Assembly: GCA_000004985.1 (NCBI GenBank) | Contig: GG738869.1 | DNA length: 64,000 nt | Source of the DNA: Naegleria gruberi | Taxonomy: Eukaryota | Strand: one strand, 5' to 3' | Translations under genes and position numbers: made by a program | In this document: positions 8,567 through 56,555 of the stretch, piece by piece | Layout of the letters: each line of letters opens with the position of its first letter | Numbering within the stretch: position 1 is the stretch's first letter | The notes under the pieces: generated by a model | The model's database searches: none | What the model saw: only the letters and a program-made list of their open reading frames with translations | Told to the model about the DNA's origin: nothing

Positions 8567-11197
8567 ATGTCTTACTTCAAGCCTTTGGAAATTAAGAGTA
8601 TTTTGACTAAAAAGACTGACCAATTGGATCTTGTCAGACCATTAACAAAATTTATTTCGATACAATATGGAGAACATATTTTGAAAGATTATGAAACTCC
8701 AATCTCTGCCCTTCAACAACGTAGAAATGAAATGAGAAATTTACAAGAGAAGAGTGAAGGATCAAGGGATTTATGTATTAGGTAAGGTTATTGTTCCGAT
8801 GACAATATTTATTAATATTATTATTATTTCGTGATTAGATATGCTGTTGATATGATGCAAGTTGCTAGCCATTTCCCAATTGATACAGGTGTTCAACGTA
8901 TACAAGTACAATTCTCTTGGTATGACAGTCTTAGTCGTGCTAGAACAACACAAGGAAATTCAAATTTTGAAATTGCAAACGTTTTATTTAATAGTGCTGT
9001 TTTATCTCATCAACTTGGTACATCACAAAATAGAAATTCCGAAGAGGGTTGTTTGGAAGCAGCCAAACACTTCCAAAGTGCTGCCGGAATGTTTACCTAT
9101 ATTCAAAAGAAGGTGTGTCCAAATATTGTAGAAAAACTTAATCAAGATTTAACAAACGAAGCTTTGGAAGCATTAGTTTTAATTTGCTTAGCCAATGCTC
9201 AACAATGTATTTGCGAAAAAGCTCACAAGAAGAATATGAAAGGAGCAATTTTATCAAAGTTATATATGGGTGCTAGTCATAGTTACAAGCTTGCTGCTGA
9301 AGTTATTGATGCCTCCAACACTACAAAGAATCTCTTTGACAAGACATGGAAGTCCTATCTCAGATTTTGTCAACACTACTTTGAAGCTTTGGCATCCTAT
9401 CTTATTGCTTTAGATCTTCATGAGGAAATGTGCATTGGCAAGGAAATTACAAGAATTATCCATGCTCAAAATTGTCTTGTTGATTGTTCCGAGCAAAGAG
9501 TGACTGGTAATTTAAAGCTTGTTATGGATGAATTGGATCAAGTACTCAACAATTTGTTAAAGACTGCTCAACATGAAAATTCAAAGATTTATCACGATCG
9601 TGTTCCTGAATTGAAGGATTTGGAACTTGTTGAAGCCAAGACAATGTCAAAGATTCAAGAAGTTAATGAAATTTCCGATTTATTGAAGGAAAAGATTGCT
9701 GATCCATTCTTTAACCTCTTCCCTATTCCAGTTATGGAAGCCAAGCAAAAGTATGAAGAAAATATCAAGAAGAGAATGAATGAAGTTTTTGTTCAAGCTC
9801 GTCAACATCGTGAATATATTAGAAATGAACTTTCAAAGATGGGACTCCCTGGATCAATTTTGATGGTTGACCAAAAGTCAGGATTCCCAGATGAGGTTCA
9901 CCACAAGATCTCCAAGATCAACTTGGAAGGAGGTATCAATAGATTATTTGAATTGAAGCAAACATTGGATGAAATGTCTGGTGAAACCAAGAATCAACTC
10001 GATTCCATCACTAAAAAGCTCGATGAAGAACAAAAGGAAGATGATGAATGTCGTATGCAATACGGAGCTAACAGATGGCCAAGATTGGAAAGCGCCAAGC
10101 TTACTAGCAATTTGAGAAAGCAAATAACTGACTATCAACAAAAGCTGAAGATTGCCATCAACTCTGATAGTTTGATTGATAAGAAGATTTCTGAAAACTC
10201 TGAAGGATTCAAATGGTTCTCTCTCGATAGTAAGACTTTGAATGACAAGATGCCACAAAGTCTCTCTCAAATCATGGAACCAAGCTCACAATTTGGCAAG
10301 TCATATTCTGACCTCAAGTTATATTTGGCACAACTTGACGATATTCTTGAACAAGAACTTGCCATTGAGTCCAACATTTCCAATTCATTCAAATTACAAG
10401 ATAAGGAGATTGAACTCAAACTTTTAGCTTCTCAAAGTAATTTGGAATCTTCTGTACAACAATTATTACAAGAACAAGAAGCCAAGTTTAAGGAACTTTT
10501 GGTTGATTTCCCACAAAAAGAAAATACCTATCTCCAATCCATTCAAGAAGCAAACAGAACTTTTGAACAACACAAGTCTCAAAATTCTATTCAAAGTCAA
10601 AGAGAACAAATTTTACAATTCATTTACAATGCTATCAACAAGTATAATGAAATTAGTGCCAATTTGCAAGAAGGTATCAATTTTTATACAACAATGCAAG
10701 AAATTACCAAGAAACTTGCTAATCGTATTGATGACTTTGTTTTTGCCAGAAGAACAGAAAAACAAGATATTATGGTCAATATTCAACAACAAATTAGTGG
10801 TGTTACAATTGATCCACAATATAATTATTCCTCTTCACAACAACCAAAACCAGTCCATGGTTCAAACACTCCTGTATATTCATCATCCACTATAACTTCT
10901 CAACCAACAACCACCAATACAACCAGCTCATCGCAATACCAACCTCAATATCAATACCAACCAAACGCTTATCAACAACCACCACAACAATATCAACCAC
11001 AAGTTGCCTACCAACAACAACCTCAATACCAACAAGCACAACCATATATGCAAGGAAGTGGTAGCTTTACTCAACCTCAATTCCAATACGTACAACAACA
11101 ACAACAACAACAACCTTACTACAATCCAAACGCTCAATACCAACAACAACAACAACCTTCGTATCAGAATCCTAATCAACCCCAATACAGAAGATAA
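8567..11197 (+). CDS. ALIX/Bro1-domain protein (BRO1 + V domain + Pro/Gln/Tyr-rich tail); 2 exons: 8567..8781, 8839..11197; intron 8782..8838 (57 nt)
   Basis: Exon 1 (MSYFKPLEIK...DLCI) and exon 2 (YAVDMMQVASHF...) align with ALIX, e.g. IYHDRVPELKDLE and the V-domain. The GT..AG intron restores the frame (ag + a = AGA Arg). C-terminal YxxP/QYQP repeats. Confidence 0.85.
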
Positions 11198-16030: not shown

Positions 16031-16111
16031 GCAGGGGTTCCCGAGTGGTCAAAGGGGGTAGACTCAAGTTCTACTGCGCAAGCTTCGTGGGTTCAAATCC
16101 CACCTTCTGCA
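16031..16111 (+). tRNA. tRNA-Leu (anticodon CAA), type II with long variable arm
   Basis: Cloverleaf: acceptor GCAGGGG/CTTCTGC, D-arm, anticodon stem GTAGA/TCTAC with loop CTCAAGT (CAA), variable arm, T-arm GTGGGTTCAAATCCCAC. T-rich tract downstream acts as Pol III terminator. Confidence 0.85.
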
Positions 16112-40131: not shown

Positions 40132-41535
40132 ATGTCATCACAACTTCTCTACTCGATGTATTGCATTTTGGAGGGCAACTTTCCAATGGATAAACAACAT
40201 ATTCAGGACTTCAACCAAAGAAAATCACCCGATTGGATGAATCTTTCTAAACCGTTAATTAGCAAGACCAATATTTGGCATCAGGCCTCAAGTTTTCATC
40301 AATTACAAATTAAATCAACACTCTGTGGATCAACGTGCACCGAATTAATTTCAGTGCTGGATTTTGAGGATACTTCATGTTGTTCTCTCTTTTTAATATT
40401 CGGAGGAAGATCTTCCGAAATCAGGGAAGGTACTTGCATGGTAAATGATGAAAAACAATTGTATTTGATAGAGATGGTTGATAATGAATTTTCCACATGT
40501 TTGAGCTATGTCTATGATGAAAATGTGTTGAATGAAAAACAAATTCCACAGGCACGATACGGCCATTCTAGTGTCTTTGATAAAGATAGAAAGTTAATGT
40601 ATGTCTTTGGTGGGATGGCTGGAGGGAAGTGTCATAATGATTTGGCAATTTTTGATGTAGTGACAAGTTTGTGGACAATTGTTAATTTTGCAAATGTTGG
40701 ATGCTTGATTCTTCCACAAGAAAGATATGGACATAATTGTGCCATTTACAAAAATTGGATGTTTGTTTGTGGAGGAAGGGATAGCTCAGGAAATATTTTA
40801 GGAGGAATTCAAGCTATGGATTTGGATCGTTGTTTATGGATGAATATTCAAGTGGAATCATTGAGTGGAAGAAGTTTCTTTACTATGGACGTGATTGAGA
40901 GAAGAGATGATAAAATTGAGATGATCATTGCTGGAGGAATTAGAAAAGATCTCAACGAAAAACCACTACAAAGACTTACCATCACTGTTGGGAATGAAAG
41001 ATCTATACACTGCTCAGTTAATCCAATAGAAAATCAAGAACTGACTTGGGATAAGTACGGACATTGCTCTGTATTCAAAAATCAAACCTTGCTATTGGTA
41101 GGAGGTCAGAATCAAGATCACTCTCTAGATTGTAATAGCTTGGAATTTAGTATTGAGAGTGAAACCTTCTCCTCATTCTCATACTTTCTACAGCCATCTA
41201 CACATTGCAGTTTGTCGTTCCTGAACATTTCGCAAGATCTTGATGTCAATCAGAATGATGGATTCTATTTTGCTTCATTACTTTATGACAGCACTTTGAA
41301 TTGCTATGTTGTTGGGGGAAATTCGATAGCTACTTATAGAACTACACCATCAATAGATGTTTCAGAAAACGTTATCAGTGATACGTGGGTAAAGATTGTC
41401 AGCTTTTTGAATTACGATGACTTGAAGAAATTATGTCTAGTTTCCAAACGATTCTACACAATATTTACTGCAGATGTGATTTGGAAGCCAATTCTGTTTA
41501 AATTCTTTGCAGAAAAATTGATAATACCCGTATAA
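40132..41535 (+). CDS. kelch-repeat (beta-propeller) protein with C-terminal F-box-like motif (467 aa)
   Basis: Kelch-type units with GG doublets and ARYGHS / ERYGHNC / DKYGHCS motifs; C-terminal DTWVKIVSFLNYDDLKKLCLVSKRFYTIFTADVIW; ATG 40132. Confidence 0.7.
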   Translation: MSSQLLYSMYCILEGNFPMDKQHIQDFNQRKSPDWMNLSKPLISKTNIWHQASSFHQLQIKSTLCGSTCTELISVLDFEDTSCCSLFLIFGGRSSEIREGTCMVNDEKQLYLIEMVDNEFSTCLSYVYDENVLNEKQIPQARYGHSSVFDKDRKLMYVFGGMAGGKCHNDLAIFDVVTSLWTIVNFANVGCLILPQERYGHNCAIYKNWMFVCGGRDSSGNILGGIQAMDLDRCLWMNIQVESLSGRSFFTMDVIERRDDKIEMIIAGGIRKDLNEKPLQRLTITVGNERSIHCSVNPIENQELTWDKYGHCSVFKNQTLLLVGGQNQDHSLDCNSLEFSIESETFSSFSYFLQPSTHCSLSFLNISQDLDVNQNDGFYFASLLYDSTLNCYVVGGNSIATYRTTPSIDVSENVISDTWVKIVSFLNYDDLKKLCLVSKRFYTIFTADVIWKPILFKFFAEKLIIPV

Positions 41536-43091: not shown

Positions 43092-43544
43092 ATTTCACAT
43101 GCAACACGTTCAATGAAAGATGTGAAATTGTTCAACACAAAATAAATTTTTAATTTCCACCTCAAACCATAATTAATAATCTGCAATTCTAGAACATTGC
43201 GAGCTTGATATTGACAAGCAAGTATCCCTTCCAGAATAAATCAGTGATGCCTTAGCATTCTCATAAGCAAACAATGTCTTTCGCCTTTTACTAAAGACAT
43301 CCGTGTGAGTGTGTAATCATGGGCTTCACGAATTTTTCTGCCACTTTCTCGAGTGGACAATCTTAATAGAAAACAAGCATTACTATTATATTCAACATTA
43401 GAATGAGAATTTTGATTATGTTCCTTCATCGCAACTCCTCTAAATAATGTATTGTAAAGTAATATTATCGGATTTCCCTTCGAAAAACCATTTTGGGAAG
43501 ATTTAAATGACCTATCACAAGAAGAATCCAAGCTCTTTTTAAAA

Positions 43545-44285
43545 ATGTCTCAACACCACCAATGCAACACCTACACTGAAGCTCTTGATCAGATTCATCT
43601 GCAATCCCTCGAATATTATCAAGAAGTTGTCGATCAACAAGGAGGTTGGGAGAATTACAAAGTCACACCAGAACAAGCTCGATACTACATCAATAAGAAG
43701 AAGCATACTTATCATATTTGGATGGGTGAGATGAAGAATGTTCATTTGGGAGAATCTGTTGTGAAGGATTTGAGAGATTTCATCAAGTATTTGGATCATG
43801 AGGAGGTGAGATTATTGTGGGATGAAGAATTGGTCAAGAGTCAAACTATTCACGAAACAATTGCAAAAAATTGTAAAGAAAGTTGTAAGCATGATGATTT
43901 GAAAGTTTTTTATAGAGAGTTTAGTTCTGGAAGTAAGGCCATTTCGAATCGTGAATTTGTAGTTTCTAGAAATATTTATCAAGATCCCAAATTGGAAAAT
44001 GTGATGTGGTTGTGTACTCATACACCAATGGACTTTCCAGATTATGAACACAAGAATGCACCAAAGAATTCATCATGTGTAAGAGGAAAGGTCATGCTGA
44101 CTTCATGGAGATTTGAAAAGTTACCATCCACTATTGAAGGAAAATCATGTTTTAACATTTCTATAATGACACATTCAGAACCTGGAGGTTGGGTAACTGC
44201 TTCTTTGTTTAATAATAGTGCAGGTGATAGACCAGCAGCAACAGTTTCGAGATTGGTTAAATATTTACAAACAACCAAACAATAA
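43545..44285 (+). CDS. START (StAR-related lipid-transfer / Bet v1-like) domain protein, 246 aa
   Basis: GW..Y.....Y...KK..Y.....G......V..L.DF....E.R..WD..L.....I.......ISNREFVVSRN...D.....V....T.......VRG......W.F..LP.....SC; the ISNREFVVSRN motif is diagnostic for START domains. Confidence 0.7.
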   Translation: MSQHHQCNTYTEALDQIHLQSLEYYQEVVDQQGGWENYKVTPEQARYYINKKKHTYHIWMGEMKNVHLGESVVKDLRDFIKYLDHEEVRLLWDEELVKSQTIHETIAKNCKESCKHDDLKVFYREFSSGSKAISNREFVVSRNIYQDPKLENVMWLCTHTPMDFPDYEHKNAPKNSSCVRGKVMLTSWRFEKLPSTIEGKSCFNISIMTHSEPGGWVTASLFNNSAGDRPAATVSRLVKYLQTTKQ

Positions 44286-44344
44286 ATAGCTAAAATATGT
44301 TTATTAAGGCGAAGTAAGGAATGATAAATTCATTTGGTGTAATC

Positions 44345-44400
44345 GGGCGTGGTATAGTGGTAGCATTCCAGACTGTCACTCTGGCGACCCGGGTTCAATT
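44345..44400 (+). pseudogene. 3'-truncated tRNA-Asp(GUC)-like fragment (acceptor 5' half, D-arm, anticodon arm and T-loop present; 3' T-stem and acceptor strand missing)
   Basis: GGGCGTG GT ATAGTGGTAG ... CCAGA CTGTCAC TCTGG CGACCCGGGTTCAATT matches eukaryotic tRNA-Asp up to the T-loop, then diverges (TTATGTAG...). Lies 60 nt downstream of the START-domain gene stop. Confidence 0.4.
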
Positions 44401-45161
44401 TTATGTAGTTTTAGGTTTTGGAAATTTTAAATGAAAATTTATGTTCCAGCCTTTGTGGTCAATAAATACTAATCGTATTTAATTATGAATTAAGAGTTGC
44501 TCCAGAGGATCATGAAATGTTATATCATGATTAAATCCAATGGAAATGTTTGAATTCTTCATTCATAGAAGATGAAAAATGTGTTTAGGTGGTATTGTTG
44601 TTCTATTAATTAATAAAAATTGAAATTTAAGGTACCAATCTGCATGTTCACAAATCCCCCATTCACAAACCATGGCTGGAAAGGAATGCAGCAATCATCT
44701 ATGAACGAGGAAACCTACAGCGAAGCATGTTTCCAGTTCGATATCATGCTCAAGATATGTGACTACAGAGTCTTCATCTTGGTTAACCTCAAAGGTCAGA
44801 TTGACTCAAAAAAGTCGAGTTTATGTATTCCTACAGAAAAGATCCTGTAGAAGTACAGTCAATGGTTTTATCAATCTTGCATCCTCAATGATGTTATATC
44901 GGTTGTGAAAGTGAGAAATGTTGTGAGGAAAAGTTATGGTTAAAAAATTGAGAAAAATTAGAAGACATATTCAAGAAAATATTTGAATGAGTTGGAGAAA
45001 CACAAGGTCGTTTTTTAGTTGAGAATTTACAAATTTTGGTTGTTTAATTTGTAAATTGGAGAATTACTCTGTTGGAAGAAAATGATAAATAACTAAAAAC
45101 GACCTTGTGTGATTATTGATCTATTCCCATATGAAAATCAAGTTTGTTTCCCAAACATGAA

Positions 45162-45242
45162 GCAGGGGTTCCCGAGTGGTCAAAGGGGGTAGACTCAAGT
45201 TCTACTGCGCAAGCTTCGTGGGTTCAAATCCCACCTTCTGCA
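45162..45242 (+). tRNA. tRNA-Leu (anticodon CAA), second copy, 81/81 nt identical to 16031..16111
   Basis: Identical sequence GCAGGGGTTCCCGAGTGGTCAAAGGGGGTAGACTCAAGTTCTACTGCGCAAGCTTCGTGGGTTCAAATCCCACCTTCTGCA. Both copies are preceded by TGAA and followed by a related TTTCTCC(T/C)TCAA..TTTTT flank. Confidence 0.85.
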
Positions 45243-45596
45243 GCTTTTGCTTCTTTCTCCCTCAATATTTTTGGTAATACCACCAGTTTCCTATTTTTAT
45301 TGTGCGTATGACGTCTAGTTTCTATGGTAAAAGTTTGATTCAATTCCGTCAAGGCTCTATGAAGATAATCAATAAAGATAACACTGACCTCAAATATTCC
45401 AGTAAAAATACCTTTAAAAATTTCAAACAAACCAAAGATTGAGAAACAGCCGCTCATAGTTATTCTCTGAATGAAATGCCTTCTAGGAGCTACAGATCCA
45501 TATTGTTACAGCGGAATAAGGTTTTTGTGAATGACAACATGGAGAACATTTTGGAAATGAAAAGTTTAAAATATTAATTTGCTTTTCAAGTTCTAT

Positions 45597-46430
45597 TTAT
45601 TTCCACAGATTTTTCAATGGAAAATTAAATTCTTTCGATTTTTCTATAAGTGAATGGATGATTGACTTGTCAATTGAATCATTTTTGATGAGAACTTGGA
45701 GTGGATCTACCCTTTCAAATAAGGATATAAAATACAACAAATAAATTCCATTTTCTATTGATAGTAACTTATCTGAATATAATTTGATGAAAGAGTCCAT
45801 AATTGGATAGGATCTGTTCAATGTGTATACAAGTTGTGTTTTTTTGAACAATTGGAAATAATCTGGTAAGACTTTACACAATCTTTCCAATAGTGGGATT
45901 GTAAAATTGTTGGAAAGCAATAATTGGTCAAAATATCTTGGGACAGCAATCAATAAACACACTATAGTTCTGTGGTTTGTTTGAATTTTGTAAGCACCAA
46001 TCCATTTTAAATGATTTTCAAAGTAGGTCATATAAATTGACAGTTCCTTCTCCCGACATGCAAGTTCTGTATTCAATTCAAACCACCATGCACTCATCAA
46101 TATTTTGATTCTGTGATAGTGAAACTTTTTCATTAGTACTTCTTTTTCATTTTGATTTTTTGGGATAGTCTGAGATAGAATAATCAATTGTTGGCAATTT
46201 TCTTTTGGAAGTGGTATTTTGTTCCTTCTCACTCTTGACAATAAAACAAATTTAGGATTATTTGATTCGGAGATCATTGATGTGAAGGCATTCAGTAAAT
46301 CATTGGTAGTGATTAATTGACAAAATTGAGGTTCATTCTTCAAAAGTGTATACAGTTCGGAAAAAGGCAAGAATTTCAATATTAAAGATAGTATTTCCGT
46401 GGGTAAGCTAGTTACATAATAAATACACAT
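45597..46430 (-). CDS. F-box-like protein (277 aa), otherwise uncharacterised
   Basis: Minus strand ATG at 46430; N-terminal LPTEILSLILKFLPFSELYTLLKNEPQFCQL (F-box-like); rest helical/leucine-rich with no recognised domain. Confidence 0.5.
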   Translation of the reverse strand: MCIYYVTSLPTEILSLILKFLPFSELYTLLKNEPQFCQLITTNDLLNAFTSMISESNNPKFVLLSRVRRNKIPLPKENCQQLIILSQTIPKNQNEKEVLMKKFHYHRIKILMSAWWFELNTELACREKELSIYMTYFENHLKWIGAYKIQTNHRTIVCLLIAVPRYFDQLLLSNNFTIPLLERLCKVLPDYFQLFKKTQLVYTLNRSYPIMDSFIKLYSDKLLSIENGIYLLYFISLFERVDPLQVLIKNDSIDKSIIHSLIEKSKEFNFPLKNLWK

Positions 46431-46513
46431 TTTTTAATGTTGCGTAAATCCTCCCAAAAGATTGCACTTTGGTGTTTAATATCTTTGAAACTTGTTGCTG
46501 GTAAAAATTAAAA

Positions 46514-46634
46514 GACTACAGCACCACAGGTTCCCAAGTTGTCTCCAACCTCAGTACTGATGTGGCTCGACGATGCTTAACTTCTCAAATCGGACGGGAT
46601 GAGGTGCATTCATCGTGATATGGCCGTAGCCGTC
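46514..46634 (-). rRNA. 5S ribosomal RNA gene (~121 nt), dispersed copy, Pol III T-run terminator at 46510-46513
   Basis: Reverse complement reads GACGGCTACGGCCATATCACGATGAATGCACCTCATCCCGTCCGATTTGAGAAGTTAAGCATCGTCGAGCCACATCAGTACTGAGGTTGGAGACAACTTGGGAACCTGTGGTGCTGTAGTC followed by TTTT. This matches universally conserved 5S blocks (GGCCATA, CCCGTCCGAT, GTTAAGC, GGGA(A/G)). Ends are +/- 3 nt. Confidence 0.8.
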
Positions 46635-51119: not shown

Positions 51120-54100
51120 ATGGAGGAAAAAATTCCTGCGATTTTTCATCGAGAAGTAATCACAAAATTTGATTTTCTACCCAAGCTAAAGCATTCGACT
51201 ATTGCAAGACATTCAGAATTTCAAAAATTCCTATCAAATTTTCTACGCGAATACAATTCTTCAAAGAACCAAATTCCTTCAAGACGATATGGTAAATATG
51301 CAACCACTAAAGAAGTGAGTGCCATCATCAAGGAAATTCTAGAGTGGTACTGGCTAGATACGGAGGAGGAGAAGGATAGCACTGCTCTTGGATTAATTCT
51401 GGAGAGAATGGGATTTCCGAATCATGTGATTAGTTAAGGTCTGGAAGTGTGTAATTTTATTGGTCATTTCCATTTGGATACTTGTTTGGTTTTCTTGTTA
51501 TCTTCTTATAAGTGGTTGCTGAATGAATCCTTTTTCAAGAAACAACAACACAATAGCAATTTCATGGGCAAGATTAATGATGGTGAATGTGTTAATGCTT
51601 TCAATTATGTTAGAGATTTGGAACGTGCAAGAGAACAGTTTGATTCATCGTATTCGGAAAGAACAACTTCTATTGGTGATGATGAAATTCAACATGTTCT
51701 TGATGGACATATGGTCAATTGGATTTTATTACTCCAAAGAGTGTTAAAGATGAGACCAGAATTGCAGAGGCAGATAAAGGAGGATGGAGGTGCTGATTGG
51801 TTGGTTCGTGCAGTGTCTTTAAAAACACATCACCCAGTAATTCATAATATGGCAAGTGCTAAGAAGTTTCTCCAATTAATGAAGAAATTTACAACTTTAC
51901 AAGGTCAACCGTATGCAGAAATGAATTTTGATGAAAAATTTGAAATGCTCAAGGTTGTGACAAGAACATTTCTTGTTACAATGAATGGTTTAGAGCAAGT
52001 CCACAAATGGTTTTTGGATGGTAATCAGGATTTATCTGTGAATCAACTAGAGAATGATAGAGATCACTTTCGTATAAGAATAGTTGAAATTTGCATTAGA
52101 AATTCAACAAGCTTACAAGGACTTGCAGGAGACTTATACTCAGACAATAGTGATCCAAGAGCAATTGTCAAACTCAGAAGTTCACCGAAAGGAAAATACT
52201 CAAAGAGTCGTTATAGATTATATTTTGGTGTTAACACAACCTTGACTGTATTATTTTCCTTTCCAAGAATGGGATTGACATCTCAATTATTTCTTTCAGA
52301 AAATTCAGATTTGGAAAGTTTAAAGGATTTGAAAACTGTTGCAGGAAATTATTGGGGAGAAGAAACAGTTCTCAAGATTAAGCAAGATTTTTGTAATAGC
52401 ATCAATAATGGTAAAAAGCCAACAGTTTCAAAGCAAGATTTTTCAAAATGCAAACATTTGGAAAGAATTTCACAAGAATTTAGAGCTGCTCGAGTTTTGA
52501 AAAGTTATCAAGATTCTCCAATTACAATTGCCGGTTATTCATTTCATCAATTATGTCAAAATACCAGTGGAATGCATTCGTATAAGTATACTTATTATTG
52601 TGGAGATTTGGCTGATGAATTGCCATTGGGAGTGGAAGATGTGAAGGAGTTTTTTATTCCTAGTCATCTCAATCCAGATTTGTACAAACCAGAAAATCAA
52701 TTGAAATTAACAGTTCGTTTATCGCTCTTAAATACTCCAATATCTCCTACGATTAATATTTCAGAATATCAAGTTATTGAAGATGTTGGTCTTTTCACAG
52801 ATGGTTGTGGTTTCATTTCTCCTGATTTAGCAAGAGAAATTTATAGAAAAATTAAACAGGCAGAATCTAGAGAGAAAGTTCACGTATTTGAGAATGCACA
52901 ATACATGGTTGATGTACAGATGATTTATCAAGATTCTGATCCAGTTGAGGATGATATGGATGATAATGTTCCTTCAGCATTTCAGATTCGTTTTAGAGGA
53001 GCAAAAGGCATGCTCCTACAAAATCCAAATGTGAAAGGAATTGTATTAAGAGAATCTATGGTTAAATTCAACGTAGATTTAGATGAAGATCTCGATGAGG
53101 AAGACGAAAGTCTTTCGAATATCCATGTAGTCGGTTATTCAGAACCATCTAATTTTGCATTCGCCAACTCAACAATTTTGTACATGATGAGTGGATGTGT
53201 TGATGGAGGTGAGAAATTTGAGGGAATAATTATGAATATGTGGAAGGATTATGTTAATGACATTTTAAAAACCTATTCTAATGAAGATACTTCCCAATTG
53301 ATGAAGAAATATTTCAAAGAAGGCGATTTTCATGCCTTAAACATTTTCGGATTGACCAAAGATGTTGCACTCGCTTTCCTTGCAGGACCATTCAGAACTC
53401 AATTGTTGAATCTTAAACTCCCTATTCAAAATGCTCGGAGAGTTTACGGAGTTTGTGATCCACTCGAAGTGTTAGAACCAGATGAAGTTTTTGTTAGAAT
53501 TAGAATGGAAGATGGCACTTTGAAAACCTTGGAAGGAACTATTGCCATCACTAAAGAGCCATGTCTTCATAGAGGTGATTTACGTTTGCTGAAAGCTAAG
53601 AAAATAGAGAGTTTAGAATATCTTTCAGAAGTAATTGTTTTTCCTATTAAGGGAGAAAAAAGACCTATTCCTAACATGATTACAGGAAGTGATTTGGATG
53701 GTGACAAATATCTTGTCATTTGGGATGAACCTCTTGTTTCATCTTTCGTCCAACAATTCGAACCTGGAAACTTTGATGAAGAAATTGAAGGAGAAAAACG
53801 TAATTTCGAACCAGATGTTTTTAAGGACTGGATAGGATTGAGACATTCCTATGTAGATTCGTATGGATATGAATGGAGTAAAGGTGAGAATTGGAAAACC
53901 ATGCAAAGACTTTCAGATATTGTAAATATGGCTGTCGATGCACCTAAAAAGGGGAAAACATTCAAGGCAGGTGCAATGGAGAAGGATATTGTTAGAAACT
54001 TTCCGAAATATCCTCATTTCCATAATTCAAAGACAAAGGAAGCTGTTAGAGTGAGTACTTCAGTTGTTGGGAAAATGTATGATTTTGCAATTGATAGAGT

Positions 54101-56555
54101 TACTGAGCGTTTTAAATTTCAGCCAGTTACTGACAAGCGTCAAACATCAACTGACGACAAGGAATATTTATTCTTGGATAATTTATACCAAGTATTGCGA
54201 AGGAATAAGGATATTTCAGTCAATCAGTTTTTGAACTTTATTTGGAAACATTTTTCAAACATTTTATTGAGAAGCACTACAATTCAATTTGCTTCTGAGT
54301 TTTTAGATTCGTTTTGGAGATTCTTATGTATGTTGACAATACGAAAAGAGAAAACTATTATATTGTGTTGTCTTAACACAACTGTTGATAAGGTTAATAA
54401 CAGTTCTATGAATGCAATTATTAGCGAAATGACAAAGAGCGATAATTTAGTACTAATGGTTCAAGGAATATCCGAAACTAAACTCAAATTCAAAGAAGAT
54501 TTGCAAAATGACAAGATACATGACTCCTCTGCATGTTCTTTATTCAAATTTTCCAACTCGAATGTTGAATTTATTCATTTCCTTTTTTATGAAATATTCT
54601 TTGATGCAGCTTCAAGAATCCAAATTGATCTAGGGTACAATTTGCTTACCAATTATACCCTATCTCAAACCCTATTTGAAAATATTGTAGAACCATCGAC
54701 TTTGAATCCAGTTCTCTTTAAAAAACCAAAAACTATCTTTGAAATAATTTACAAAGCTTGCAATGGCAAAGACTCAGATAGAAAGAAGCATGCATTGTAC
54801 ATTGTTGGACTTTTATTCAAGAATGGTATAATTTTACCTAGAAACTATGATTTGGCTATCAAATGCTTTAAACTGGCACTTTCAAAAGAGAACAATATCC
54901 GAATTGGATTTATACCATATTTGTATAATAGTGAAAAACGACCTGTAATGAAAGAATTGAAGATTCTGGCAAAGGCAGGATATGCTGAAGCACAATACAA
55001 CTTGGGAAGATTAAGCTATTTTGATGGCGATCAATGGTCTGCTTTGGAATGGTTGAAAAAAGCTGCTTTTCAATGTGTTCTTAATATTGAAAACAGAGGA
55101 TTGGATAAGAAGAACACTCTTTACTTTTTATCAAATCTCTACAGGGATGGTACTATTGTTGAGTGGAATAATGATAGATATCTTCAATTATTGGAAGAAT
55201 CTGCTAAATTAGGATCTATTGATGCAATGTACAAGATTGGAAGAAGGATGGAGTTGACCAAACAGTATTCATTTGCTTGTTTTTGGTATGAGAGAGCAGC
55301 CTATGAGGGAATATTAGAAAATTATTTGCAAGGTTATGGAATGAAAAACTCTTGTCGATTCAGCTTGGAAATTGATGAATATGGAATTGATTCAATGAAT
55401 AGATTGCCACCTCTTCCATTGCAAAATGATCTACAAGTTGAAATTCAACTTGATATTTCAATAGAAAGTCCTCTCTTGAAGAAAAATATGCTATTTGTGC
55501 AGAGTTCAAATCCAGTTTTCCAAACTTTTTGTAATGATGGAACAATTATTCCACCAAACGAAATTGAAGAATTTACCAAGATTCTCCCAAGTTCTAATAT
55601 ATTACAAAAGAAATATGAAAGGAAATATGAAAGCATCCATGACTCAGCAAAGAGAACTATGGAAAAAGCAGAAAAAATGCTGAAATTGGCTAACCAAACT
55701 ATTGCTCATATAGATAGAATTTTAAACAAGGGAAAGAGTTCAGATTCGAAAGAATCTCCTCTTGAAAATGAGAGTAAAGAAGAAGTAGAAGAAATATCTA
55801 CTGAACAAATATCAACTGAACAAGAAGATACAAAAGAATCTATTATTCCACACACAAAATGGAAACTGATTTATAGAGGAAGTAAGGATGGATACGAATC
55901 TAATGATTTCCATAGAAAGTGTGATGATAAAGGTTCCACTTTCATCATAGTCAAGACTAAAGAGGACGAAATATTTGGAGGATATACAACCCAAACTTGG
56001 AAAATTCCCCAAGCAAATATCTTTGGACACACACAACGAAACGATGAAAATGCATTCTTATTCATTCGTTCCAAGAGTCGCAAATATTTTAAACTTCCAA
56101 TCACAAATCAACCAAGTATTGATTGTACTCACGCAAGATTAATTGACTTTCTTGATTTTACCATACCAAATAATTGTGATATAATTCCAGGACATACTAA
56201 TTTCGGAATGAATTATCAACTTCCAAAATGGTCTAAGGGAAATGGATTCAGTTTTAGTGAATCTCTTGATAATAGAAGAAGTTTTTATGTGGAAGAAATT
56301 GAAGTTTATTCATTAATAGATTCTGAAGATGAAAATAGTCCACTCATGTCTGGATCAATCAATCTTTCTCAGATAAGAACAGATGGTCCTATGTTTAATT
56401 GGGATGATTATTTGAGCTACGTTAGAGCACGAAATAGTGATCCTTATGGTACAAGAGCATACACAGAAAGTGTAAGACAAGCAAGAATTTCAAGTGATGA
56501 AGGAATTGAAAGATTGAAAGACAAGTTGCGTCTAATGGGAGTTTTCAAGGAATAG
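51120..56555 (+). CDS. RNA-dependent RNA polymerase (cellular RDR/QDE-1 family) with C-terminal Sel1-like repeats and a TLDc domain; core ORF 51564..56555 is certain. A possible 5' exon 51120..51425 would be joined through an in-frame 87-nt intron 51426..51512
   Basis: Catalytic RDR signature ITGSDLDGDKYLVIWDEP at ~53680-53735 (DLDGD = DbDGD motif) within a ~900-aa RdRP core. Sel1-like repeats (AKAGYAEAQYNLGRLSYFDGDQWSALEWLKKAAFQ; ESAKLGSIDAMYKIGRRME) at ~55100-55350. C-terminal TLDc-like domain (WKLIYRGSKDGYESNDFHRKCDDKGSTFIIVKTKEDEIFGGYTTQTW...AFLFIRSK...SFYVEEIEVYSL) at ~55870-56370. TAG stop at 56553-56555. Confidence 0.85.

What the first reader, a model, noticed from the sequence alone, without database searches (positions are those of the whole stretch)
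51120..56555. RNA-dependent RNA polymerase fused to Sel1 repeats and a TLDc domain
One uninterrupted 1660-1700-codon ORF combines the canonical eukaryotic RDR catalytic core (GSDLDGDKY, the DbDGD motif used by RDR1/2/6, QDE-1 and RRF-1) with two C-terminal modules not part of described RdRPs: several Sel1-like TPR repeats and a terminal TLDc domain. The TLDc match is good (WKLIYRGSKDGYESNDFHRKCDDKGSTFIIVKTKEDEIFGGYTTQTW ... SFYVEEIEVYSL; compare OXR1/NCOA7/TBC1D24). TLDc domains are linked to oxidative-stress protection and V-ATPase or partner binding. Attaching one to an RNAi-amplifying polymerase suggests a regulated or localised small-RNA amplification module, or possibly a neofunctionalised RdRP. 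An in-frame upstream ORF (MEEKIPAIF..., 51120-51437) is separated from the core by a single TAA that a GT..AG intron of exactly 87 nt (51426..51512) would remove, so the protein may be longer still.
Basis: partly seen in the sequence, partly recalled or inferred. Interest (0 to 1): 0.75.

Follow-up and report, generated by a model that had tools for sequence, protein, structure and literature searches.

The report
Naegleria RNA polymerase with TLDc tail
A Naegleria gruberi gene really does encode an RNAi-type RNA-dependent RNA polymerase joined to a Sel1 repeat scaffold and a TLDc domain. I found this combination in only one other sequence, its function is untested, and the proposed 87-nt intron is not supported.

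Summary
Window 51447..56555 (+) is one 1702-codon ORF (chance about 1e-57). It carries Pfam RdRP (E 3.9e-72, intact GSDLDGDKY), Sel1 and TLDc, all above curated cut-offs. AlphaFold models match only solved Sel1-repeat and TLDc structures. The window is Naegleria gruberi, and the gene is already deposited as an unnamed 1745-aa "predicted protein".

A 66%-identical ortholog on a metagenome contig has the same modules in one uninterrupted ORF. pN is far below pS in the RdRP, Sel1 and TLDc modules, so the fusion is real and selected. Among the best 150 hits of an exhaustive search of 1.84 billion representatives, and all 245 proteins retrieved, only these two combine RdRP with TLDc. Paralogs carry RdRP±Sel1, and a Willaertia relative carries RdRP+TPR+MYND. 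The TLDc therefore looks like a lineage-specific terminal adaptor on a shared scaffold.

The 87-nt intron is not supported. That stretch, and the 198-nt intron of the deposited model, aligns gap-free with coding sequence in the ortholog, and the TAA sits opposite a Val codon.

Any V-ATPase or membrane link through the TLDc is inference only. This is a new variant of a known kind, of moderate interest.

The parts
51120..51434 (+). N-terminal extension, first part: ATG 51120 to the codon before the in-frame TAA. It is specific to this orthogroup and absent from the paralogs.
   Evidence: ORF. It is collinear with the ortholog P0002. The first 65 codons are weakly conserved (34% identity). From 51315 onward identity is 54% with pN 0.29 and pS 0.62. 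No Pfam family matches.
51435..51437 (+). In-frame TAA that interrupts conserved coding sequence.
   Evidence: It aligns with GTT (Val) of the ortholog, in a gap-free block LGLILERMGF..(V/*)(A/G)L(D/E)VC..HLD.CL.FLL. It could be a nonsense substitution, an allele, an assembly error, or be spliced out. This is not resolved.
51315..51512 (+). The stretch removed as a 198-nt intron (GTGAGT..AG) in the deposited 1745-aa model.
   Evidence: P0001 reads ...ATTKE|WLLNES.... The region behaves as coding sequence against the ortholog. Its GC is 39%, higher than the 34% of the downstream exon. Both proposed introns are multiples of 3.
51513..52472 (+). Pre-catalytic N-terminal region of the polymerase. 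The first in-frame ATG after the TAA is at 51564.
   Evidence: 58% identity to the ortholog and pN/pS 0.29/0.68. Its C-terminal half is shared with the paralogs.
52473..54083 (+). RdRP catalytic domain (PF05183, ORF aa 343-879).
   Evidence: Pfam E 3.9e-72. PDB phmmer hits RDR2 7eu0 at E 6.8e-18, plus QDE-1. 80% identity to the ortholog and pN 0.13.
53691..53705 (+). DLDGD catalytic loop (within GSDLDGDKY).
   Evidence: Coordinates. It aligns to GGDLDGDQF of RDR2. It is invariant in all six family members.
54084..54734 (+). Helical linker after the catalytic domain, shared with the RdRP paralogs.
   Evidence: Local phmmer hits P0002, P0104, P0005, P0003, P0004 and P0006. 66% identity to the ortholog and pN 0.22.
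54735..55328 (+). Sel1-like repeat alpha-solenoid of about 5-6 helix pairs (ORF aa 1097-1294).
   Evidence: Pfam Sel1 36.6 bits with best repeat at aa 1115-1146. The AlphaFold model has paired helices H38-H235, with pLDDT 73-88 over most of them. Foldseek hits Sel1-repeat structures LceB 8sxq, LpnE 6deh, HcpC 1ouv and SEL1L 5b26 at E 1e-5 to 5e-4. It aligns with the Sel1 region of paralogs P0004 and P0005.
55332..55469 (+). Predicted disordered spacer.
   Evidence: pLDDT about 30. 48% identity to the ortholog.
55470..55595 (+). First elements of the TLDc domain (…GTIIPPNEIEEFTKILPSS).
   Evidence: In the ortholog the Pfam TLD match starts at profile position 4 and covers the equivalent stretch. 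In N. gruberi the match starts at profile position 17, after the insertion. Helices have pLDDT 69-86.
55605..55853 (+). Insertion of about 78-83 aa, specific to N. gruberi, inside the N-terminal part of the TLDc. It is a long predicted helix followed by an acidic, Glu-rich disordered stretch. It contains a 15-nt tandem repeat at 55788-55823.
   Evidence: Absent from the ortholog. It is purine-rich (66%) with no intron-like signals. Tandem repeat. Helix at model residues 325-371.
55857..56318 (+). TLDc core (beta-sandwich).
   Evidence: Pfam TLD E 3.7e-15. pLDDT is mostly above 90. The top 16 Foldseek PDB hits are all TLDc domains, at E 2.4e-7 to 7e-5 and target-normalised TM 0.62-0.72 for the isolated-domain structures; the next hit has E 0.2. 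48% identity to the ortholog with pN 0.32 and pS 0.73.
56319..56555 (+). C-terminal tail with predicted helices (56400-56534), a conserved last motif G(I/M)ERL..L..(M/L)G(V/L)F, and the stop codon.
   Evidence: Helices have pLDDT 78-87 in the short model and 55-72 in the long one. The tail is only 25% identical to the ortholog (pN 0.50, pS 0.63), apart from the terminal motif.

Best explanation
This is one nuclear gene of Naegleria gruberi. It encodes a cellular, RNAi-type RNA-dependent RNA polymerase (RDR family) that appears catalytically competent.

Shown:
- The polymerase core is followed by a helical linker and a Sel1-repeat solenoid. Both are shared with other Naegleria RdRP paralogs.
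- In this orthogroup only, a TLDc domain and a short helical tail follow the solenoid.
- All modules lie in one reading frame in two species and are under purifying selection.

Inferred:
- The polymerase copies target transcripts into double-stranded RNA for Dicer/Argonaute silencing.
- The Sel1 solenoid is a docking platform for partner proteins.
- The TLDc is a terminal adaptor that decides where or when this particular paralog acts.
- Every TLDc protein whose partner has been determined binds the V1 sector of the V-ATPase. The most specific guess is therefore tethering to, or regulation by, V-ATPase-bearing membranes such as endolysosomes, phagosomes or the contractile vacuole. I give that specific step only about 25%.

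The N-terminus is separately unresolved. The orthogroup-specific N-terminal extension is ancestral coding sequence that carries an in-frame TAA in this assembly. Neither proposed intron is supported by conservation.
For: - A single 1702-codon ORF (chance about 1e-57).
- All three Pfam domains score above their curated cut-offs.
- The RdRP aligns to RDR2 and QDE-1 with DLDGD intact and invariant across the family.
- The Sel1-repeat and TLDc folds are confirmed by AlphaFold plus Foldseek and by a profile search of the PDB.
- The ortholog P0002 is 66% identical, has the same three domains, and is one uninterrupted ORF on an independent contig without shared neighbours.
- Module-wise pN is far below pS: RdRP 0.13/0.70, Sel1 0.26/0.68, TLDc 0.32/0.73.
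- Paralogs have RdRP±Sel1 and a Willaertia relative has RdRP+TPR+MYND. This fits a common scaffold with variable terminal adaptors.
- N. gruberi has Dicer homologs (PMC4791657; PMC10328071).
- All five mammalian TLDc proteins bind V-ATPase (PMC8608904).
- mEAK-7 binds V-ATPase through its TLDc and a C-terminal helix, and Oxr1p also binds. NCOA7-B is an interferon-induced antiviral V-ATPase binder (PMC9263379).
- The Gly equivalent to Ncoa7 G815 and the GG of IFGGYT are retained.
Against: - There is no expression, activity, localisation or interaction data of any kind.
- This TLDc is only 14-18% identical to the V-ATPase-binding TLDc domains. It belongs to the 'FH..CD..G.T' sequence type, typical of stand-alone TLDc proteins of protists and invertebrates, whose partners are unknown.
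- The position equivalent to Ncoa7 S817 is not conserved: Glu in N. gruberi and Lys in the ortholog (my reading of the alignment).
- The C-terminal tail, the candidate analogue of the mEAK-7 helix, is poorly conserved at 25% identity.
- The in-frame TAA in the conserved N-terminal extension could mean that the N. gruberi copy is truncated or starting to decay.
- Only two sequences carry the architecture, so selection is inferred from a single pairwise comparison with saturated synonymous sites.
Confidence: 0.6

Rival explanations
1. The fusion is real, but the TLDc has nothing to do with V-ATPase. It would be a promiscuous module picked up by domain shuffling. It might bind another partner, or act as an intramolecular or stress (redox) sensor that gates the polymerase. 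It might also have little function beyond what the Sel1 scaffold already provides.
For: - The closest TLDc relatives are short stand-alone or multi-TLDc proteins from rotifers and uncultured eukaryotes, not Oxr1/NCOA7-type proteins.
- Some hits have 7-8 tandem TLDc stretches, which shows that the domain is evolutionarily mobile.
- A related heterolobosean RdRP carries MYND fingers in the equivalent terminal position, so the terminal module is interchangeable.
- Identity to V-ATPase-binding TLDc domains is only 14-18%.
- The purified TLDc domains of Tbc1d24 and Tldc1 alone did not pull down V-ATPase (PMC8608904).
Against: - Purifying selection on the TLDc module (pN 0.32 against pS 0.73) argues against a functionless passenger.
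- V-ATPase is the only TLDc partner class seen in the solved complexes retrieved here, from yeast to mammals.
Confidence: 0.3
2. N-terminus, model A: the deposited 198-nt intron (51315-51512) or the first reader's 87-nt intron (51426-51512) is really spliced. Formerly coding sequence would then have become an intron that removes the TAA, giving a 1745- or 1782-aa protein.
For: - GTGAGT (51315) is a good donor. GTGATT (51426) is a weaker one.
- Both share a pyrimidine-rich acceptor ending in AG at 51512, and both keep the reading frame.
- The upstream 105-codon ORF is still open. This would be expected if it is still translated.
Against: - The whole stretch is gap-free and collinear with ortholog coding sequence and has a coding-type substitution pattern.
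- The 'polypyrimidine tract' encodes the conserved LVFLL / LIFLL.
- GC of the stretch is higher than that of the flanking exon.
- Both introns are multiples of three. That is the pattern expected when a predictor calls an intron merely to bypass a stop (general point from PMC1950532, seen only as an abstract).
- No transcript evidence could be retrieved.
Confidence: 0.3
3. N-terminus, model B: there is no intron. Either the TAA is an assembly error, one allele of a heterozygous strain, or read through, so the protein is about 1811 aa like the ortholog. Or it is a genuine recent nonsense mutation and translation starts at ATG 51564, giving 1663 aa without the extension.
For: - The stop is a single codon in otherwise intact, conserved coding sequence.
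- The read-through length of 1811 codons equals the ortholog's length.
- The paralogs function without this extension, so its loss would be tolerable.
Against: - TAA is generally the least leaky stop codon (my own knowledge).
- Nothing here can test for an assembly error.
Confidence: 0.55
4. Artefact or pseudogene: the long ORF fuses two neighbouring genes, or the locus is decaying.
For: - There is an in-frame TAA in the N-terminal extension.
- There are internal Met codons in the N. gruberi-specific insertion before the TLDc core.
- The C-tail is weakly constrained.
Against: - A 1702-codon open frame in 34%-GC DNA has a chance probability of about 1e-57.
- The ortholog keeps the Sel1-to-TLDc junction in frame without the insertion.
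- pN is far below pS in every major module.
- The catalytic motif is intact.
Confidence: 0.04

Closest known systems
Eukaryotic cellular RdRPs of the RDR family (Arabidopsis RDR2/RDR6, Neurospora QDE-1, C. elegans RRF-1/EGO-1, S. pombe Rdp1)
   Same: The same PF05183 catalytic domain with the DxDGD loop. It aligns to the RDR2 (7eu0) and QDE-1 (2j7n) structures.
   Different: It has about 820 extra C-terminal residues: Sel1 solenoid, TLDc and tail. Among the proteins retrieved, no RDR outside this orthogroup carries a TLDc. It also has an orthogroup-specific N-terminal extension.
Naegleria gruberi RdRP paralogs P0004 (1384 aa) and P0005 (1235 aa), and Willaertia magna KAL9647075.1 (P0109, 1870 aa)
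   Same: 35-40% identical polymerase cores, the same post-catalytic helical linker, and a C-terminal Sel1/TPR-type repeat extension.
   Different: They end after the repeats, or in Willaertia with two MYND zinc fingers. None has a TLDc or the N-terminal extension.
TLDc proteins that bind V-ATPase (yeast Oxr1p and Rtc5p; mammalian OXR1, NCOA7, TBC1D24, mEAK-7/TLDC1, TLDC2)
   Same: The same fold, with target-normalised TM 0.62-0.72 for the isolated-domain structures, and conserved structural glycines. Like mEAK-7, the TLDc is followed by a C-terminal helical segment. Like Ncoa7 and Tldc2, an acidic Glu-rich stretch precedes the TLDc core.
   Different: Only 14-18% identity. It has an insertion of about 80 aa inside the domain. 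The C-terminal helices are poorly conserved between the two orthologs. The partner domain is an RNA polymerase rather than a TBC, LysM, EF-hand-like or coactivator module. V-ATPase binding is untested.
Sel1-like repeat (SLR) proteins (SEL1L/Hrd3, HcpC, LpnE, LceB)
   Same: Pfam Sel1 above its cut-off and an alpha-solenoid fold matching these structures. This is a generic protein-docking scaffold.
   Different: The repeats are degenerate, with only one (N. gruberi) or two (ortholog) scoring individually. Here the scaffold is an internal module of a polymerase.

Membership tests
Eukaryotic RDR-type RNA-dependent RNA polymerase (PF05183) | Profile match above the curated threshold over most of the domain | tested here: met
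   244.2 bits against a cut-off of 23.8, covering profile positions 51-580 of 582. The ortholog scores 243.7 bits.
Eukaryotic RDR-type RNA-dependent RNA polymerase (PF05183) | Catalytic DxDGD loop with all three aspartates | tested here: met
   GSDLDGDKY at 53685-53711. It aligns to GGDLDGDQF of RDR2 and is invariant in six family members. PMC4791657 states that DLDGD is the key motif.
Eukaryotic RDR-type RNA-dependent RNA polymerase (PF05183) | RNA-templated RNA synthesis | not testable with these tools
   Needs recombinant enzyme assays.
Sel1-like repeat (SLR) proteins (PF08238) | Profile match above the curated threshold | tested here: met
   36.6 bits against a cut-off of 30.7. The ortholog scores 35.0 bits with two repeats.
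Sel1-like repeat (SLR) proteins (PF08238) | Alpha-alpha solenoid fold resembling solved SLR proteins | tested here: met
   The model has paired helices with pLDDT 73-88. Foldseek hits LceB, LpnE, HcpC, SEL1L and Oxalobacter SLR proteins at E 1e-5 to 5e-4. Confidence is moderate because the alignment was shallow.
TLDc domain (PF07534) | Profile match above the curated threshold | tested here: met
   56.7 bits against a cut-off of 24.5. The ortholog scores 73.9 bits.
TLDc domain (PF07534) | TLDc beta-sandwich fold | tested here: met
   Core pLDDT is above 90. The top 16 PDB matches are all TLDc domains and the next match has E 0.2. A profile search of the PDB finds only TLDc chains below E 0.01.
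TLDc domain (PF07534) | Conserved glycines needed for folding and V-ATPase binding in Ncoa7 (G815, G845) | tested here: met
   The Gly of KDG(Y/F) aligns with the Gly of OXR2 KHGMS, and the GG of IFGGYT is invariant. The residue mapping follows PMC8608904. The S817 equivalent is not conserved (Glu/Lys). G896 was not mapped.
V-ATPase-binding TLDc regulators (Oxr1p/mEAK-7/NCOA7 class) | Physical binding to V1 subunits | not testable with these tools
   No complex-prediction or interaction data is available here. Membership of this functional class is not claimed.
V-ATPase-binding TLDc regulators (Oxr1p/mEAK-7/NCOA7 class) | mEAK-7-type conserved C-terminal alpha-helix after the TLDc | tested here: inconclusive
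   Helices are predicted at 56400-56534. The tail is only 25% identical between the orthologs with pN/pS about 0.8. Only the last 15 or so residues are conserved.
UBA domain (considered for the N-terminal extension, by eye) | Profile or sequence match to UBA | tested here: not met
   No UBA hit in Pfam at E<1 to E<10 and no PDB hit at E<10. The fold could not be predicted because the tool rejects the stop-containing translation.
Spliceosomal intron (87 nt, 51426-51512) | Sequence absent from, or unconstrained relative to, the coding sequence of orthologs | tested here: not met
   It is gap-free and collinear with the ortholog ORF, with a coding-type substitution pattern.
Spliceosomal intron (87 nt, 51426-51512) | Removal from mature mRNA | not testable with these tools
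   No transcript data was retrievable.

The most novel reading that the evidence does not exclude
A dedicated RdRP paralog is physically coupled through its TLDc and tail to the V-ATPase on phagosomal or endolysosomal membranes. Small-RNA amplification would then be triggered or confined where foreign RNA (viruses, prey) enters the cell. That would be a protist counterpart of the antiviral V-ATPase binder NCOA7-B, wired directly to RNAi.
Probability: 0.1. Interest if true: 0.75.

Novelty: new variant of a known kind. Interest (0 to 1): 0.4.

Why it matters
Cellular RdRPs are normally directed to their templates by separate partner proteins. Here the targeting or regulatory module appears to be built into the polymerase, and related heteroloboseans carry a different module (MYND) in the same position. 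If the TLDc does tether the enzyme to V-ATPase-bearing membranes, it would link RNA silencing to the endolysosomal system in a free-living amoeba that feeds by phagocytosis. It would also give TLDc domains a partner context outside the OXR1/NCOA7/TBC1D24/mEAK-7 set. More modestly, the locus shows that the deposited N. gruberi gene model probably removes a conserved coding segment as an 'intron' to avoid an in-frame stop.

Tried and rejected
1. UBA-like reading of the N-terminal block LGLILERMGF...L.VC...HLD.CL.FLL. There was no support from Pfam or PDB phmmer. It is kept only as an untested lead.
2. Folding the N-terminal extension. 
3. More orthologs. Two JGI metagenome scans were run. One used the Sel1-spacer-TLDc junction and found nothing. 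One used the conserved RdRP motifs and found only relatives at 28-53% identity over short segments, none a close ortholog.
4. The last word-indexed protein search, on the N-terminal alignment, returned nothing and did not even return P0002. I treat it as a tool limitation, not a negative result.
5. Literature. No paper in the searchable library combines RdRP with TLDc in one protein, or TLDc with Naegleria. The 2014 comparative-genomics review of RNAi systems that I recalled could not be retrieved. Prior description there cannot be excluded.
6. The N. gruberi-specific insertion before the TLDc core as an unannotated intron. Rejected because it is purine-rich, has no pyrimidine tract or suitable AG, stays open in frame, and contains a slippage-type 15-nt repeat.
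7. Anti-phage defence models (PADLOC) gave no hit.
8. Synteny with the ortholog contig. The upstream genes are not shared.
9. Mobile-element or viral origin. The neighbourhood consists of ordinary housekeeping genes.

Full report
**Observation**

The window contains one ORF at 51447..56555 on the + strand. It has 1702 codons counted from an upstream GTG and 1663 from the first in-frame ATG at 51564. With the window's composition (34% GC, stop probability 0.074 per codon), an open frame of this length has a chance probability of about 1e-57.

Pfam finds three domains above their curated cut-offs:
- RdRP PF05183 at ORF aa 343-879, E 3.9e-72.
- TLD PF07534 at aa 1460-1623, E 3.7e-15.
- Sel1 PF08238, 36.6 bits against a cut-off of 30.7.

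**Identity of the locus**

A homology search returns a 100%-identical 1745-aa 'predicted protein [Naegleria gruberi]' (P0001) with the same three precomputed Pfam domains. The sequence and its automatic domain composition are therefore already in public databases, without a name or a described function.

The neighbourhood is ordinary chromosomal DNA. It includes an SNF2 helicase, BRO1/ALIX, an HMG-box protein, an EF-1alpha-like GTPase, a Kelch/F-box protein, START and TauE. There is also a small cluster of U5, U3, tRNA and 5S RNA genes. Nothing suggests a mobile element or a viral insertion.

**Is the fusion real?**

The second-best hit, P0002, is 66% identical and 1811 aa long. It lies on a 12.1-kb metagenome contig (ENA ERZ27315067, locus L001) as a single uninterrupted ORF. 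It carries the same RdRP, Sel1 and TLD domains. The contig has different neighbouring genes and is 70.5% identical at nucleotide level over the gene.

A family alignment shows that the two proteins are collinear through every module. These are the N-terminal extension, polymerase, helical linker, Sel1 region, spacer, TLDc and a tail ending in G(I/M)ERL..L..(M/L)G(V/L)F.

A Nei-Gojobori comparison shows saturated synonymous sites (pS 0.62-0.78) but much lower non-synonymous divergence in the major modules:

| Module | pN |
|---|---|
| RdRP | 0.13 |
| Linker | 0.22 |
| Sel1 | 0.26 |
| Spacer | 0.35 |
| TLDc | 0.32 |

Continuity of the frame in two diverged species, together with purifying selection on each module, rules out a gene-merging artefact. 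It also makes a pseudogene very unlikely.

**Each module**

*Polymerase.* It aligns to the solved structures of Arabidopsis RDR2 (7eu0, E 6.8e-18) and, more weakly, QDE-1. GSDLDGDKY aligns with GGDLDGDQF. The motif is invariant in all six family members. PMC4791657 notes that DLDGD is the key catalytic motif.

*C-terminal half.* AlphaFold models show the following, in order:
- An alpha-solenoid of paired helices at 54735-55328, pLDDT 73-88.
- A disordered spacer.
- The first TLDc elements.
- A long helix and an acidic disordered stretch. These correspond to an insertion of about 80 aa found only in N. gruberi.
- A high-confidence TLDc core at 55857-56318, pLDDT above 90.
- C-terminal helices.

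*Fold matches.* Foldseek against the PDB returns only TLDc structures for the C-terminal domain. These are Skywalker/TBC1D24, OXR2, NCOA7, mEAK-7, Oxr1p and Rtc5p, at E 2.4e-7 to 7e-5, and the next hit has E 0.2. For the solenoid it returns Sel1-repeat proteins: LceB, LpnE, HcpC and SEL1L.

*The insertion.* It is purine-rich and has no intron-like signals. It contains a 15-nt tandem repeat encoding EQIST-EQIST. I read it as a slippage-grown linker inside the TLDc N-terminal loop. This explains why the Pfam match starts at profile position 17 in N. gruberi but at position 4 in the ortholog.

**How unusual is the architecture?**

An exhaustive phmmer search with the C-terminal 1063 aa against 1.84 billion representatives found 8407 hits at E<=1e-3, but only 14 at E<=1e-30. 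RdRP and TLDc co-occur only in P0001 and P0002.

The other family members are built as follows:
- N. gruberi paralogs P0004 and P0005 are RdRP+Sel1.
- N. lovaniensis P0003 and P0108, and several uncultured relatives, are RdRP only.
- Willaertia magna KAL9647075.1 is RdRP+TPR plus two MYND fingers.

The picture is a heterolobosean RdRP family with a shared helical linker. Several members also carry a TPR/Sel1-type scaffold and differ in their terminal adaptor domains. The TLDc is the adaptor of one narrow orthogroup. The TLDc is indeed unprecedented among what I could retrieve.

No paper in the searchable library describes it. A 2014 comparative review that I recalled could not be opened, so earlier mention cannot be excluded.

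**The N-terminus and the proposed intron**

The deposited model instead removes 198 nt (51315-51512, donor GTGAGT), because P0001 reads ...ATTKE|WLLNES....

Several observations argue that the stretch is coding sequence:
- The ortholog reads straight through this whole stretch without a single gap.
- Over 51315-51527 the two are 51% identical in amino acids, with about a dozen synonymous differences.
- Nucleotide identity by codon position is 0.63/0.72/0.46, which is a coding signature.
- pN is 0.29 against pS 0.62, like the flanking exons.
- The supposed polypyrimidine tract encodes the conserved LVFLL.
- The stretch is more GC-rich than the downstream exon.
- The TAA lies opposite GTT (Val).

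The stretch is therefore ancestral coding sequence, and the stop is a point change within it. I cannot tell what happens in N. gruberi today. The candidates are:
- an assembly error or one allele;
- read-through;
- a recent truncation, with initiation at ATG 51564;
- genuine 'intronisation' using one of the two donors.

The upstream 105-codon frame is still open, which argues that the change is recent or that the segment is still used. No transcript-derived sequences could be recovered. The conserved block resembles a UBA domain by eye, but Pfam and PDB searches give no support, and the tool could not fold it.

**Mechanism**

*Shown.* This is a single gene under purifying selection. It encodes an RDR-type polymerase with an intact active site, a Sel1 solenoid and a TLDc domain.

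*Inferred from family knowledge.* The polymerase makes complementary RNA for Dicer/Argonaute silencing. N. gruberi Dicers are documented in PMC4791657 and PMC10328071. The Sel1 solenoid docks partner proteins.

*Speculative.* The speculative part is the role of the TLDc. The background is:
- All five mammalian TLDc proteins bind V-ATPase, and conserved glycines are required (PMC8608904).
- mEAK-7 grips V-ATPase with its TLDc plus a C-terminal helix. Oxr1p binds V1. NCOA7-B is an interferon-induced antiviral V-ATPase binder (PMC9263379).

Three features here parallel those proteins:
- The equivalents of Ncoa7 G815 and G845 are retained.
- A Glu-rich stretch precedes the core, as in Ncoa7 and Tldc2.
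- Helices follow the core, as in mEAK-7.

Four features weaken the parallel:
- Identity to those TLDc domains is only 14-18%.
- The tail is poorly conserved.
- The S817 equivalent is not kept.
- This TLDc belongs to a sequence type typical of stand-alone protist and invertebrate TLDc proteins whose partners are unknown.

I give the V-ATPase or membrane-tethering step about 25%. I give the more general 'terminal adaptor that specialises this RdRP paralog' reading about 60%.

**Verdict**

The domain interpretation is supported and the intron interpretation is not. The architecture is a new variant of a known kind. It is a genuine, selected, lineage-restricted RdRP-Sel1-TLDc fusion, present in public databases but apparently undescribed. 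Interest is moderate (0.4). The combination was not seen in any other protein retrieved, and it suggests a testable link between RNA silencing and TLDc/V-ATPase biology. However, it rests on two sequences and no functional data, and domain shuffling of interaction modules onto protist enzymes is common.

Noticed in passing
window 43247-46631: A tight cluster of small RNA genes: U5 snRNA (43247-43357, +), U3 snoRNA (44634-44862, -), a tRNA (45162-45242, +) and 5S rRNA (46513-46631, -). All score above the Rfam gathering thresholds.
   Followed up: no
window 16031-16111 and 45162-45242: Two 81-nt tRNA matches with identical Rfam scores (48.7 bits), about 29 kb apart. They may be duplicate copies, possibly containing an intron given their length.
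   Followed up: no
window 51435-51437: An in-frame TAA inside coding sequence that is conserved in the ortholog (opposite Val). The deposited gene model appears to avoid it by calling a 198-nt in-frame intron that deletes a conserved 66-aa block.
   Followed up: partly
window 55788-55823: A 15-nt tandem repeat (GAACAAATATCAACT x2.4, encoding EQIST-EQIST) inside the N. gruberi-specific acidic insertion before the TLDc core. It suggests that the linker grew by replication slippage.
   Followed up: partly
L001 6514-6840 (N-terminus of ortholog P0002): The ortholog has about 110 extra N-terminal residues, including a CPICH...C..C stretch with a weak RING/U-box-like Pfam hit (E 0.18). N. gruberi has no counterpart. 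The in-frame sequence upstream of ATG 51120 looks non-coding.
   Followed up: no
protein P0109 (Willaertia magna KAL9647075.1): A related heterolobosean RdRP carries TPR repeats and two MYND zinc fingers C-terminal to the polymerase. The terminal adaptor therefore varies between lineages.
   Followed up: partly
alignments A1/A2 (TLDc homologs P0020-P0097): Many TLDc-only proteins of about 240 aa from uncultured organisms align so that the C-terminal half of a TLDc precedes the N-terminal half of another. The consensus ends in ...WKLIYRASEHGY...IFGGYTTQSW. This suggests tandem TLDc arrays split by gene calling, or permuted proteins. Some hits have 7-8 TLDc stretches (P0105 and P0107).
   Followed up: no
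window 40132-41535: An ORF with Kelch repeats followed by a C-terminal F-box (aa 417-456). This is the reverse of the usual order, F-box then Kelch.
   Followed up: no
window 8831-11197: The BRO1/ALIX-like ORF starts at BRO1 profile position 64. An upstream exon and a real intron probably lie just before 8831. That could serve as a local example of N. gruberi splice signals.
   Followed up: no
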